Below, piece after piece: positions 56,294 through 59,200 of a stretch of 64,000 nucleotides of DNA. This DNA is from Flaccisagitta enflata (Eukaryota). Position 1 is the stretch's first letter. Every line of letters starts with the position of its first letter. The notes under the pieces were generated by a model. It saw only the letters and a program-made list of their open reading frames with translations, had not been told where the DNA came from and made no database searches. Location of the stretch: contig OZ231126.1 of the NCBI GenBank assembly GCA_965153355.1, positions 22,320,001 to 22,384,000 on the forward strand, given 5' to 3'. A program made the translations under genes and the position numbers.

Positions 56294-59200
56294 ATACGGA
56301 AGAAAGGTGCATAATATCCGACGATAATGAAGGAGAAGATGAAAAAGAAGCAGAAAAGCGACGACTCTGGAATTTCCTCCTTTCATCTGCAAACAAAGAG
56401 AAAGACGTTGATGGTGATAGTGATGGTGAAAGTGATGACGGTGATGCTGCATCTGATAGTTCAATTGAAGTAATTGAACTCAGCGACGATGAAGACAATG
56501 ACAAAACAGGCGACAAGCAGATGAGAAATGATGACAGAGACCTCGTCAATGATAACCAAAATGGTGAAAATGATGAAGACGACATTGAAATTATCGGCGA
56601 AACATCTGCTGAATCCGGTACCATTTTTAAGTTGCCATCCGACGATGAAATTGACAAAATCAAAGGTAAAAAGAAGGACAAAATCGAGGCCAACGCTAAG
56701 AGCCTTAAAAATGACAGTAGATCCTATGTGGCAAGTGATGAATATCGTACTAACGACAATATCATCACCAATGTTGACCCTCAAGACAGTGAGAGAATTG
56801 CTTCAGTTGATCACGATGATGACGATTACAATGTCATCACTGATGACAACGTTATGACAGAAGATTTTTCCACTGACTGCATCACGATGCCAGATGGAGA
56901 TGAAGCGTCAGATGTTGACAAATCTAGAAGCACATATGGAAATGATCACATCCAGCACACCAATTCGGCAACATCCCATGACAGATACAATGCCACGAAA
57001 GGCGATGATTTAGTTTTGATTTGCGGTAGCACTGACGGTTCACAGAAGGACGATGTAACCTCCCTCGATGAGTTTGTGATAGCCAAGGAGGTCATCAGCT
57101 GTATCTTGAGGGAAATTGGTTCACAATCGGTAATCACTGAAAAAGAAAGCCCCGTTTTGGATACACCGAATGTCATGGAATCGACATTGAATGACGAGAA
57201 ACTATGGAATGATACAGTCAAAGTGATGGATTATCTTCTAAGTGAAACATGCAAACCATCTGACTCACCAATCGGTAATAGTCAATCATCTGTTGTCCCT
57301 GATGATAGGGTCATTGATTCATCTAGAAATGATCAAAATCAGTCGTGCATCGCCACTATAAGAGAGACAGATGATTTCTCAAACAACACATCTGATGTCA
57401 TCCATGATTTGCATGAACCAGACAAATCGTCAAAAATCAAGGACGGCCACTCACTTATTTCCACAGTTGTAGAATCAGACAGAACAAATGATGTCAAAAT
57501 CAAAGAAGCAAAATTGGTTGCATTTGACGTCGTCGAGCATTTACTGGTGGAAATTGATAAACCACCAGTTGATTTACTCAATTCAGATCCACCACATGTA
57601 GCTGCCTTAAAAGAGGCCCAAAACGTTGCTGTTGATGTTGTAGAGCACTTACTGACCGAGGTTGCAGAAGCATCTCTAACTCCAGATGATGGAGAAAACT
57701 CTCTAGCCGTCCTGGATATCATGATGCACCTAGTTGATGAGACCAGCAATTCCGATGAAAAATCAAAGCAAGGTGGTCGTTTTTCTTACATTACCAATGG
57801 CATCAACAGGGACGCTGTAGATGTGATTGAATGCCCGATTCCTGAGATGGATTCCCACATTCCTCCGGATTCCCACATTCCTTGGATAGAATTCAATACT
57901 CCTGTGATGGAATCCCAAATCCCTGTGATGGAAACCCATATTTCTGAAGACTCAATGATTGCCAGTCATGTAATGAAGGATTTGTTAGAGATGGTTTGCG
58001 CTTCATCAACCATCTCACACAATTCAAATAACACTCAGATTAAAATCACAGGAGAAACCCATACAGTGGTTGCACGAGATGTTGTAGAGTACTTGCTGCG
58101 GGAAGTGGGAAATGCAACTCAAATCTCCAATGATCATCATTCTACGAAAACCACTGGTCATACAAATGACTCAAGAGATGAGACCAGCAAAAGTCGGAAC
58201 ATTTCCATTCCAGACCATCCATCGGTTGCTCGTGACGTCAAAGAATTTCTATTGGATAAAATAAGTCAATCACGTCAACCGACAAACGCGGAGAATGGCT
58301 CCTCAGATTACTGCTCTGCAAGCGACAGAGTTGAAACATCTCAAATCTCAGGTGAAGAAAGCTATTCCACGATTGCTTCCAATGTCATGGAGCACTTACT
58401 CATGGAAGACAGTGTCTCCTCAGATCTCACTTGTGCTGATCAATCATGGGAAGCAAGTTTCCTATCGGGAGCGCGGGAAGTTATGAATCATTTGCTGGAC
58501 CGACTCGATGATTCTTTGCAGATAAAAGAAAACAAAAGTCACTCTTTGCTGGCTCCAAATGTTGCAGAATATCTGTCAGTTGAAGAGCATTCACCAATTG
58601 ATAGCGTGATAAAAGATGGACACAATGTCATCAATCATGTACTAGATGACATGATGGTTGTCGTCGATGTCATGAAATACATCACAGATACAGTGTGCGA
58701 ACCGTCTTTCCATCGCAACGACGGCTATGTTATCGCTGCGGAGGACGGATTGGTTAGATATGGTGAGGTTCAAGAGAGCGGCAAGAGAGAGGAAAGTTGC
58801 ATTAACGAAGAAAACGGCAAATTTGAAGAATTAAATGGCCATGATCTTTGTAACAGAGGCCGTGAACTTGGAGTGATAACCATAGATGATAATGAAGAAA
58901 TAAATGACGATGTAAAGGCCGGCAACAACAACAACAACAACAACAACAACAACAACAACAACAACAACAACAACAACAACAACAACAACAACAACAACAA
59001 CAACAACAACAACAACAACAACAACAACAACAACAACAACAACAACAACAACAACAACAACAACAGCAACAACAACACGTCCCGAAAATTCAAAAGAAAA
59101 TCCCATCATTCCATCGATTCAGAGGAAAAGAAAAAAGACGGTAAAATTCTTCTTTCGCCGCGTAAAAAAAGGCAAAAGATAACAAAAGGGAAGAAATCTG

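What the first reader, a model, noticed from the sequence alone, without database searches (positions are those of the whole stretch)
57070..58700. About 14 tandem amphipathic helices matching the AKAP/DPY30 D/D-domain docking pattern in the DNMT3 N-terminus
Seen: recurring motif A-x-x-V-(V/M/I)-x-x-L-L-x-x-(V/I): IAKEVISCILREI, TVKVMDYLLSET, VAFDVVEHLLVEI, VAVDVVEHLLTEV, AVLDIMMHLVDET, DAVDVIECPIPEM (degenerate), IASHVMKDLLEMV, VARDVVEYLLREV, VARDVKEFLLDKI, IASNVMEHLLMED, GAREVMNHLLDRL, LAPNVAEYLSVEE, GHNVINHVLDDM, VVDVMKYITDTV, separated by diverged polar linkers. Established: hydrophobic residues at positions 1, 4/5, 8/9 and 12 define helices that bind D/D dimers (PKA regulatory subunits; DPY30 via the ASH2L-type motif). 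Inference: a multivalent DPY30- or PKA-R-binding scaffold fused to a DNA methyltransferase. It could couple to or titrate COMPASS/NURF and so stand in for the lost H3K4-sensing ADD domain.
Basis: partly seen in the sequence, partly recalled or inferred. Interest (0 to 1): 0.85.

Follow-up and report, generated by a model that had tools for sequence, protein, structure and literature searches.

The report
Helix-motif array in a DNMT3 tail
A DNA-methylating enzyme of a marine eukaryote has lost its usual chromatin-reading domains and instead carries a long floppy tail studded with about fourteen copies of a short helix-forming motif, which probably serve as docking points for an unidentified partner protein.

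Summary
All 14 motif copies sit at window 57079-58695 in one 1661-codon open frame. That frame ends in motif I of a DNMT3-type methyltransferase and continues, after a GT..AG intron, into the rest of the catalytic domain. Neither Pfam nor tblastn finds a PWWP or ADD domain in the window.

The repeat is far beyond chance:
- 72 self-matching 12-mer pairs against 1.2 in shuffles.
- 12 of 14 copies reach 10 bits or more in leave-one-out scoring.

Copies differ at synonymous sites as much as unrelated sequence (pS 0.81), yet their residues stay alike (pN 0.44 against 0.71). So the peptide motif is kept at the protein level and is not a recent DNA duplication. The linkers are polar and cannot be aligned.

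The region has no detectable relative in any library searched.

The D/D-docking reading is only a resemblance. Eight of 14 copies fit the published PhiPhiXX x3 pattern, and 2 of 14 fit the full eight-position AKAP face. The conserved block is 13 residues, against 14-18 in AKAPs. Binding could not be tested.

Population differences look neutral, and there is no evidence on expression.

Best reading: a lineage-specific, multivalent array of helical docking motifs whose partner is unknown.

The parts
56242..61194 (+). Giant open frame (stop-to-stop 56242-61227, 1661 codons). It is the N-terminal low-complexity region of the DNMT3-type protein. The true 5' end is undetermined: there is an ATG at 56263 and an acceptor-like pyrimidine tract plus CAG just downstream.
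   Evidence: By base composition P(no stop) is about 1e-46, and the other five frames carry 50-176 stops. Pfam finds 0 families.
57079..57117 (+). Motif copy 1 (residues 280-292)
   Evidence: leave-one-out 15.6 bits
57211..57249 (+). Motif copy 2 (residues 324-336)
   Evidence: leave-one-out 15.4 bits
57517..57555 (+). Motif copy 3 (residues 426-438)
   Evidence: leave-one-out 27.8 bits
57625..57663 (+). Motif copy 4 (residues 462-474)
   Evidence: leave-one-out 28.2 bits
57706..57744 (+). Motif copy 5 (residues 489-501)
   Evidence: leave-one-out 9.4 bits
57811..57849 (+). Motif copy 6 (residues 524-536), degenerate and proline-containing
   Evidence: leave-one-out 13.7 bits; 1 of 13 residues helical in the model
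57958..57996 (+). Motif copy 7 (residues 573-585)
   Evidence: leave-one-out 14.9 bits
58069..58107 (+). Motif copy 8 (residues 610-622), closest to the consensus
   Evidence: leave-one-out 31.0 bits
58225..58263 (+). Motif copy 9 (residues 662-674)
   Evidence: leave-one-out 17.4 bits
58372..58410 (+). Motif copy 10 (residues 711-723)
   Evidence: leave-one-out 21.8 bits
58468..58506 (+). Motif copy 11 (residues 743-755)
   Evidence: leave-one-out 17.8 bits
58549..58587 (+). Motif copy 12 (residues 770-782), degenerate
   Evidence: leave-one-out 11.6 bits; 0 of 13 residues helical in the model
58615..58653 (+). Motif copy 13 (residues 792-804), weakest copy
   Evidence: leave-one-out 5.9 bits
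58657..58695 (+). Motif copy 14 (residues 806-818)
   Evidence: leave-one-out 18.9 bits
57157..57198 (+). Possible 15th, degenerate copy (residues 306-319)
   Evidence: 11.9 bits untrained, against 11.0 for the 95th percentile of shuffle maxima
57436..57477 (+). Possible 16th, degenerate copy (residues 399-412)
   Evidence: Seen only as a pairwise match to copy 13; not found by the PSSM
61111..61194 (+). Motif I of the DNMT3 catalytic domain, in the same frame at the end of the giant exon. This ties the repeat array to the methyltransferase.
   Evidence: tblastn with 11 of 11 DNMT3 homologues, 46-64% identity
61195..62255 (+). Inferred intron (GT..AG, phase 0), filled with (TG)n and (TC)n microsatellites
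   Evidence: Junction sequences; microsatellites; collinear homologue matches on both sides. Not confirmed by RNA.
62256..63398 (+). Exon with the rest of the DNMT3 catalytic domain, including the stop codon. It carries an in-frame Ser/Thr-rich insert at 62514-62885.
   Evidence: Pfam PF00145, E 1.4e-19; best relatives are DNMT3A/B at 43-46% identity; tblastn segments 62253-62513 and 62868-63389

Best explanation
The region is a lineage-specific, mostly disordered N-terminal extension of a DNMT3-type de novo DNA methyltransferase that has no PWWP or ADD reader domain. It carries 14 copies (13 to 16, depending on how the degenerate ones are counted) of a 13-residue, net-acidic amphipathic motif, separated by polar linkers that cannot be aligned.

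Most likely mechanism (inferred): each motif is a short helical docking element. It folds on contact and lays its hydrophobic face (positions 1, 2, 5, 6, 9, 10, 13, flanked by the conserved aromatic or His at position 8) into a hydrophobic groove of a partner protein in trans. Many copies on one flexible chain would give avidity, or would cluster several partner molecules. In this way the array would target or concentrate the enzyme in place of the missing reader domains.

Shown: the repeat, its position in the DNMT3 reading frame, its maintenance at the protein level, and the absence of PWWP and ADD from the window.

Inferred: the helical state, binding in trans, and a targeting role.

The partner is not identified. 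A D/D dimer is one candidate among several and is scored separately below.
For: 1. The repeat is real and lies in the coding frame of the enzyme.

2. It is maintained at the protein level. Between the 14 copies pS is 0.81, the same as for unrelated blocks (0.75 +/- 0.02). pN is 0.435, and 0.276 at the four most conserved columns, against 0.71 +/- 0.01 for random linker blocks (minimum 0.669 in 200 draws). The conserved Ala and Val are each written with 4 different codons, and each conserved Leu with 5. So the likeness is not recent duplication or gene conversion.

3. Motif blocks and linkers differ sharply in make-up. Hydrophobic residues are 55% against 24.5%, and S/T/N/Q/G/P are 11.5% against 45%.

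4. Helical amphipathicity: mean hydrophobic moment at 100 degrees is 0.44, against an ORF-wide mean of 0.25 and 0.16 at strand periodicity. In the AlphaFold2 single-sequence model, 153 of 182 motif residues are helical against 38% of linker residues. Random placement reaches this with P about 0.0005.

5. There is no sign of a globular fold: pLDDT is below 50 at 561 of 561 residues and pTM is 0.20.

6. Of the 8 amino-acid differences that fall in motif blocks in other DNA runs, none hits positions 5, 7, 8, 9 or 10. Three change a non-consensus residue to the consensus type.
Against: - The population differences look neutral. Of the 40 listed single-base differences (15 more were not shown), 7 are synonymous. 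That matches the 22% expected from random non-stop changes (binomial P 0.70).
- Non-synonymous differences are as dense in motif blocks (8 in 182 codons) as in linkers (16 in 364 codons).
- No orthologue was found, so conservation between species is untested.
- The structure model is of low confidence throughout, so its helices carry little weight.
- Only 5 of 14 motifs exceed the ORF's 95th percentile of hydrophobic moment.
- Two copies are not helical in the model.
- The blocks were chosen for amino-acid likeness, so the low pN is partly built in. Only the saturated pS is independent.
- No partner is known.
Confidence: 0.5

Rival explanations
1. One reading: the motifs are AKAP-type helices that dock into the groove of RIIa-clan D/D dimers (PKA regulatory subunits, DPY30 or other R2D2 proteins). 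That would make the methyltransferase a many-valent anchoring scaffold. This is a special case of the best explanation, with the partner named.
For: - The consensus has paired hydrophobics every four residues. [quoted passage not shown]
- Eight of 14 copies meet PhiPhiXX x3 and 6 of 14 meet the 13-residue version, against 0.60 and 0.15 hits expected per shuffled ORF.
- The helices are net acidic. Acidic side chains of the ASH2L helix meet basic patches of DPY30 (passage of PMC13063893).
- Chromatin proteins that act as AKAPs or bind DPY30 exist: AKAP95 (PMC8339350) and Chd8 (PMC3468582), passages read.
Against: - Only 4 of 14 copies have hydrophobics at AKAP positions 2, 5, 6, 9, 10, 13, 14, and only 2 of 14 at all eight.
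- The conserved block ends at position 13, followed by Gly, Asp, Pro or Ser. AKAP helices are 14-18 residues.
- The polar-face residues (Asp4, Glu7, His/Tyr/Phe8, Glu12) are conserved here. In AKAPs the polar face is poorly conserved (PMC12083921).
- The pattern is generic for amphipathic helices. A looser AKAP pattern that I recalled, and could not verify in the library, also hit a buried helix of the catalytic domain itself.
- The repeat profile found no D/D-bound peptide in the PDB; the best E-value was 0.34, to unrelated proteins.
- RRx[S/T] sites are not enriched: 2 found, shuffle P 0.13.
- Known AKAPs with more than one helix have two (SKIP, AKAP220, RSP3, per PMC12083921 and PMC3494852), not fourteen.
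Confidence: 0.12
2. The helices do not recruit a foreign partner but stick to each other or to the enzyme's own catalytic domain. They would act as stickers on a flexible spacer chain that drive self-assembly or condensates of the enzyme. Alternatively they would fold back onto the hydrophobic surface of the methyltransferase domain and regulate it, as the ADD domain does in mammals.
For: The architecture fits: many short hydrophobic-faced helices with wide faces (7 of 13 positions), separated by polar acidic linkers. Mammalian DNMT3 is regulated by intramolecular domain contacts and oligomerisation (abstracts of PMC10711551 and PMC13031684, search listing only).
Against: The AlphaFold2 model of the whole array shows no confident packing (pTM 0.20), although a single-sequence model cannot exclude it. 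Strong net negative charge (D+E 18.3% against K+R 7.5%) disfavours simple self-association. No direct test of docking on the catalytic domain was possible, because the complete domain is split over two exons.
Confidence: 0.15
3. The repeats are a functionless relic: old internal duplications in a fast-drifting, low-complexity tail, where a hydrophobic core pattern decays more slowly for trivial reasons. The tail as a whole matters little.
For: - The polymorphism spectrum is indistinguishable from neutral: 7 of 40 synonymous, P 0.70. Zero stops among 40 is not significant (P 0.19).
- Non-synonymous density is equal in motifs and linkers.
- There are no homologues anywhere.
- The ORF is riddled with poly-Asn and other simple repeats.
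- Several copies are degenerate.
Against: - Synonymous sites between copies are saturated while the residues are kept. A neutral relic of that age should have lost the motif, as the linkers did.
- The frame has stayed open for 1661 codons.
- The differences seen avoid the five most conserved positions, and three restore the consensus.
Confidence: 0.17

Closest known systems
AKAP anchoring helices (for example AKAP79, D-AKAP2, RSP3 AH-R) that bind RIIa-type D/D dimers
   Same: A short, often acidic amphipathic helix inside a disordered region. Hydrophobic pairs recur every four residues (PhiPhiXX). Eight of 14 copies meet three such units (pattern from passages of PMC3494852).
   Different: The conserved block is 13 residues, not 14-18. 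Most copies lack hydrophobics at AKAP positions 14 and 17; 2 of 14 have all eight face positions. The polar face is conserved here. There are fourteen copies instead of one or two. There is no sequence relation and no binding data.
DPY30-binding helices of ASH2L (SDI), BAP18 and AKAP95
   Same: An amphipathic helix with acidic residues, on a chromatin protein, docking into a dimer groove (passages of PMC13063893 and PMC8339350).
   Different: The quoted Phi-x-Phi-x-x-PhiPhi pattern occurs in the neighbourhood of 8 of 14 copies but not in a fixed register. It is barely enriched in the ORF (21 hits against 9.6 in shuffles). Those proteins have one helix each.
DNMT3 enzymes with reduced reader domains, for example Daphnia magna DNMT3.2, which lacks PWWP but keeps ADD (passages of PMC11963560)
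   Same: An apparently complete DNMT3 catalytic domain with loss of canonical N-terminal chromatin readers.
   Different: Here both PWWP and ADD are undetectable in the window. They are replaced by about 1620 residues of orphan low-complexity sequence holding the motif array.
Mammalian DNMT3A/DNMT3B
   Same: The catalytic domain is 43-46% identical over the matched parts. Motif I, the PCN-containing segment and the C-terminal segments are collinear.
   Different: No PWWP or ADD. There is a 124-codon Ser/Thr-rich insert in the catalytic domain (62514-62885) and a giant single exon for the N-terminal part.

Membership tests
AKAP-type D/D-binding amphipathic helix | A 14-18-residue segment that forms an amphipathic alpha-helix (PMC12083921, PMC3468582, passages) | tested here: inconclusive
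   The conserved block is 13 residues. Twelve of 14 blocks are helical in a low-confidence AlphaFold2 model with pLDDT below 50 everywhere. Mean hydrophobic moment is 0.44 against an ORF mean of 0.25, and 5 of 14 exceed the 95th percentile.
AKAP-type D/D-binding amphipathic helix | Three or four PhiPhiXX units (PMC3494852, passages) | tested here: met
   Met by 8 of 14 copies for three units and by 6 of 14 for three units plus a further Phi. Shuffled ORFs give 0.60 and 0.15 hits. The other 6 copies carry a polar residue at one or more of these positions.
AKAP-type D/D-binding amphipathic helix | Hydrophobic face at helix positions 2, 5, 6, 9, 10, 13, 14, 17 (PMC12083921, passages) | tested here: not met
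   All eight positions are hydrophobic in 2 of 14 copies, and the first seven in 4 of 14.
AKAP-type D/D-binding amphipathic helix | Direct binding to an RIIa or Dpy-30 D/D dimer, lost on a helix-breaking substitution | not testable with these tools
   No D/D sequence of this organism was available, because no genome is held.
DPY30-binding (ASH2L SDI-type) helix | Phi-x-Phi-x-x-PhiPhi motif, as quoted in the review PMC13063893 (passages) | tested here: inconclusive
   A match lies within 8 of 14 copy neighbourhoods, but in no constant register. The pattern is weakly specific: 21 hits in the ORF against 9.6 in shuffles.
DNMT3 de novo DNA methyltransferase | C5 cytosine methyltransferase domain most similar to DNMT3A/B | tested here: met
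   PF00145, E 1.4e-19. All 11 hits at E 1e-10 or below are DNMT3-type (7 are named DNMT3A/B or DNA (cytosine-5)-methyltransferase by a source, and all 11 carry ADD-type Pfam domains), at 43-46% identity. There are three collinear tblastn segments, including motif I.
DNMT3 de novo DNA methyltransferase | PWWP domain in the N-terminal part | tested here: not met
   Pfam finds 0 families in the 1661-aa ORF and its parts. tblastn with 11 homologues, 10 of which carry a PWWP domain, finds nothing outside the catalytic segments in the 64-kb window at E 1 or below. Exons beyond the window cannot be excluded.
DNMT3 de novo DNA methyltransferase | ADD (ATRX-DNMT3-DNMT3L) zinc-finger domain | tested here: not met
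   Same searches as for PWWP.

The most novel reading that the evidence does not exclude
A de novo DNA methyltransferase that is itself a roughly fourteen-valent AKAP-like scaffold. Each helix would dock one RIIa-clan D/D dimer (PKA regulatory subunits or DPY30). That would wire cAMP/PKA signalling or the COMPASS H3K4-methylation machinery directly to DNA methylation, in a lineage that has discarded the PWWP and ADD readers.
Probability: 0.12. Interest if true: 0.85.

Novelty: new variant of a known kind. Interest (0 to 1): 0.45.

Why it matters
DNMT3 enzymes are normally steered by PWWP (H3K36me2/3) and ADD (unmethylated H3K4). This catalytic domain looks intact, has neither reader, and instead has an orphan array of helical motifs kept at the protein level. 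It would be a natural experiment in how de novo methylation can be targeted by other means.

If the partner were found, it would name a new recruitment route for DNA methylation in a marine eukaryote. If the partner were a D/D dimer, this would be the first many-valent anchoring scaffold and the first direct link between that docking system and a DNA methyltransferase.

As it stands, the evidence rests on one genome, with no evidence on expression and no conservation between species.

Tried and rejected
**Homology of the array (residues 270-830)**
- Word-indexed search among proteins of 913-2907 aa: 0 hits at E 0.001 or below among 7999 scored candidates.
- Exhaustive phmmer against 1.84 billion representatives: 0 hits at E 0.001 or below.
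- ESM Atlas, twice: no usable hit.
- Pfam: 0 families.
- Profile of the 14 repeats against the PDB: 9 sequences at E 10 or below, best 0.34, none a D/D-bound peptide.

**Related loci in metagenome contigs**
- With the array as query, 61 pattern matches and none confirmed.
- With the catalytic exon as query, 2 of 282 pattern matches were confirmed, both only 36% identical over residues 7-84 (L001, L002). Neither has a motif hit at 11 bits or more.

**Own genome and earlier findings**
- No genome is held for this window, so the organism's own PKA-R and DPY30 could not be fetched.
- Earlier findings of this scan: nothing in 3 look-ups.

**Expression**
- No RNA holder is listed.
- One polyA RNA run of the same organism was laid with about 6% of its reads read, and 1 read landed. 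This says nothing either way.

**Complex prediction**
- Two copies of a two-motif fragment (residues 415-483) gave 'no answer' (scores 0.01 and 0.02, mark 0.32, controls not run). This is no evidence for or against self-association.

**Patterns and sites**
- PKA-site enrichment: 2 RRx[S/T] sites, shuffle P 0.13.
- The looser 12-position AKAP pattern used was recalled from memory. The library search for it found only an unrelated paper, so I give it no weight.

**Considered from recall and dropped**
These were judged by eye, not computed, and dropped because the register or key residues do not fit across copies:
- LxxLL and CoRNR boxes
- Sin3 SID
- the clathrin box
- acidic dileucine signals
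- CRM1 export signals
- LIR, UIM and calmodulin-binding helices (the last are basic, whereas these are acidic)

**Other checks**
- The minus-strand ORF under the array (57342-57785) has only a sub-threshold PQ-loop match of 17.4 bits, against a cut-off of 22.
- Literature link between DNMT3 and D/D docking: one search found 9 papers holding at least 3 of 5 terms. None addresses it, judging by title and abstract.
- Supplementary files of the AKAP papers were not seen. Their helix alignments (Fig. S2 of PMC12083921) could sharpen the pattern test.
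Full report
**What is at the coordinates**

The finding lies inside a single 1661-codon open frame on the + strand, stop-to-stop 56242-61227. By the base composition of the stretch, the chance of no stop is about 1e-46. The other five frames of the same DNA carry 50 to 176 stops.

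The last 28 residues of this frame (61111-61194) match motif I of DNMT3 enzymes in 11 of 11 homologues tried, at 46-64% identity.

A GT follows directly at 61195. After about 1.06 kb filled with (TG)n and (TC)n, a pyrimidine tract and an AG precede 62256. From there the same 11 homologues match two further collinear segments, 62253-62513 and about 62868-63389. That exon hits Pfam DNA_methylase at E 1.4e-19. Its best relatives in a 5.8-billion-protein library are DNMT3-type proteins of vertebrates and cnidarians, at 43-46% identity.

The splice is inferred from sequence and homology, not from RNA.

No PWWP or ADD domain is detectable:
- Pfam gives 0 families for the whole ORF and for three sub-pieces.
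- The 11 homologues, which carry ADD-type and (10 of 11) PWWP Pfam domains, match nothing else in the 64-kb window at E 1 or below.

The genome is eukaryotic and very rich in microsatellites. A non-LTR retrotransposon lies upstream on the other strand. Pieces of the stretch occur at 95-99% identity in runs labelled marine metagenome.

**Is the repeat real?**

Yes.

The consensus is phi-A-x-D-V-phi-E-[H/Y/F]-L-L-x-E-phi.

| Test | Observed | Control |
|---|---|---|
| Self-matching 12-mer pairs scoring 30 or more | 72 | 1.17 +/- 1.73 in 200 shuffles |
| Copies at 10 bits or more, leave-one-out | 12 of 14 | 0.09 expected per shuffled ORF |
| Copies at 8 bits or more, leave-one-out | 13 of 14 | 0.25 expected per shuffled ORF |

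- One further degenerate copy at residues 306-319 scores 11.9 bits untrained. Another at 399-412 is seen only pairwise.
- All copies lie within residues 279-818.
- A six-frame scan of the whole window gives only 8 scattered hits of 11-15 bits elsewhere. That is about what one search's shuffle rate predicts by my own scaling.
- 'Tandem' is too strong a word. Linkers are 1-89 residues, and no DNA-level repeat is seen except an unrelated 21-bp repeat at 57838-57947.

**Is it maintained, or just recently duplicated?**

The codon evidence points to maintenance:
- Between copies, the proportion of synonymous differences is 0.81, as high as between unrelated blocks of the same region (0.75 +/- 0.02).
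- The non-synonymous proportion is 0.435, and 0.276 at the four best columns, against 0.71 +/- 0.01 for random linker blocks.
- The conserved Ala and Val are each spelled with four codons, and each conserved Leu with five, from both Leu codon families.

Recent duplication or gene conversion would have kept the synonymous sites alike. So the peptide pattern has persisted, or been re-created, while the sequence around it lost all likeness.

One caveat applies. The blocks were picked for amino-acid likeness, so only the saturated pS is an independent observation.

**Evidence that points the other way**

Other DNA runs show 55 single-base differences on 55820-58900, of which 40 were listed. Taken singly:
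- 7 are synonymous and 33 are not. This is what random change predicts: 22% of non-stop changes are synonymous, binomial P 0.70.
- The absence of stops among 40 is not significant (P 0.19).
- Non-synonymous differences are equally dense in motif blocks (8 in 182 codons) and in linkers (16 in 364 codons).
- Two pairs of adjacent differences probably belong to one codon change each.

Within motifs, none of the differences touches positions 5, 7, 8, 9 or 10. Three replace a non-consensus residue by the consensus type. This is suggestive, but the numbers are small.

There are no insertions, deletions or joints in the stretch in these runs.

**Physical nature**

| Property | Motif blocks | Linkers |
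|---|---|---|
| Hydrophobic residues | 55% | 24.5% |
| S/T/N/Q/G/P | 11.5% | 45% |
| Helical in the AlphaFold2 model | 153 of 182 residues (84%) | 38% |

- Ten of 14 blocks are net acidic, 3 are neutral and one more is at -1.
- The mean hydrophobic moment at helical periodicity is 0.44, against an ORF mean of 0.25 and 0.16 at strand periodicity. Five of 14 motifs exceed the ORF's 95th percentile.
- AlphaFold2 without an alignment gives pLDDT below 50 at all 561 residues and pTM 0.20. So there is no sign of a packed fold.
- Random placement of blocks reaches the observed helix coverage with P about 0.0005, and 12 of 14 blocks are essentially fully helical. Because the model is of low confidence, this is a hint only.

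The picture is a disordered acidic chain with regularly recurring short helix-prone hydrophobic patches.

**The D/D-docking idea**

I read passages of two papers for the defining pattern:
- PMC3494852: RIIa- and Dpy-30-binding helices have three or four PhiPhiXX units, and no residues distinguish the two groups.
- PMC12083921: AKAP helices are 14-18 residues, with the conserved hydrophobic face at positions 2, 5, 6, 9, 10, 13, 14, 17 and a poorly conserved polar face.

Against these:
- 8 of 14 copies meet PhiPhiXX x3.
- 6 of 14 meet the 13-residue version.
- 4 of 14 have the first seven face positions.
- 2 of 14 have all eight.

The conserved block stops at position 13, and its polar face is conserved.

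The ASH2L-type pattern quoted in a review (PMC13063893, passages) occurs near 8 of 14 copies. It has no constant register and is hardly enriched (21 hits against 9.6 in shuffles).

A profile of the repeats finds no solved D/D-bound helix. PKA consensus sites are not enriched.

So the resemblance is real but partial, and the pattern is one that many amphipathic helices share. Binding itself could not be examined.

I therefore rate this reading at about 0.12. It is neither refuted nor supported beyond pattern likeness.

The added suggestion that the array replaces the ADD domain has no support. Tethering to COMPASS would bring the enzyme to H3K4-methylating sites, whereas ADD keeps it away from them (ADD function as described in passages of PMC11963560).

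**Best explanation and rivals**

| Reading | Confidence |
|---|---|
| Multivalent array of fold-on-binding helical docking motifs that recruit or cluster an unidentified partner, serving as the enzyme's targeting device in place of PWWP and ADD (includes the D/D case) | 0.5 |
| D/D docking specifically | 0.12 |
| Self-association, or fold-back onto the catalytic domain | 0.15 |
| Functionless, slowly decaying relic in a drifting low-complexity tail | 0.17 |
| Remainder: errors of gene model | small |

**Novelty**

The array has no detectable relative:
- The word-indexed search gave 0 hits among 7999 scored candidates.
- Exhaustive phmmer over 1.84 billion representatives gave 0 hits.
- The Atlas gave nothing, twice.
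- Metagenome contigs gave 0 confirmed matches of 61.

The one literature search for a DNMT3 to D/D link showed nothing relevant in the titles and abstracts of 9 papers.

DNMT3 enzymes with reduced readers are known, for example Daphnia DNMT3.2 without PWWP (PMC11963560). So this is a new variant of a known kind of enzyme, carrying an orphan motif array.

It rests on one genome, without evidence on expression and without between-species conservation. That keeps the score moderate.

Noticed in passing
window 56464-56517, 56584-56637, 58867-58920, 59704-59757 (residues about 75, 115, 876, 1155 of the ORF): Short runs of Val/Ile/Leu next to acidic or Ser-rich stretches, of the kind described as SUMO-interaction motifs (pattern recalled). 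A simple regular expression flagged 6 overlapping hits at 4 places. Not tested further.
   Followed up: partly
window 58924-59064 and 60880-60954: Two uninterrupted poly-Asn runs of 47 and 25 residues inside the same ORF. They are encoded by (CAA/AAC)n microsatellites.
   Followed up: no
window 57838-57947: A 21-bp (7-residue) tandem repeat, 5.4 copies at 68% matches, sits between motif copies 6 and 7. It is unrelated to the 13-residue motif.
   Followed up: no
window 62514-62885: An in-frame 124-codon Ser/Thr-rich low-complexity insert interrupts the DNMT3 catalytic domain between the two segments that match homologues. It could be a coding loop insertion or an unrecognised intron whose length is a multiple of three.
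   Followed up: no
window 45294-50080, minus strand: A non-LTR retrotransposon. Reverse transcriptase PF00078 at E 1.9e-27, endonuclease PF14529 at E 6.7e-17, and an upstream ORF with zinc-knuckle-like Cys/His spacing. It may lie in an intron or upstream of the DNMT3 gene.
   Followed up: partly
window 59092-59240, 59767, 60190-60215, 60481, 60718-60790: Clusters of Lys/Arg that look like nuclear localisation signals lie downstream of the array. The two RRx[S/T] sites, at residues 998 and 1323, are no more than chance.
   Followed up: partly
whole window, for example 6394-7065, 8197-8933, 11771-12709, 23212-24222, 52490-53858, 61722-62210: Extreme density of microsatellites and simple repeats throughout the window, including inside the inferred intron of the gene.
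   Followed up: no
window 55820-58900: Contigs of runs labelled marine metagenome carry pieces of the stretch at 95-99% identity (for example 10 pieces in X2, 9 of them at 95-99%). So the organism or close relatives occur in sea-water samples.
   Followed up: partly
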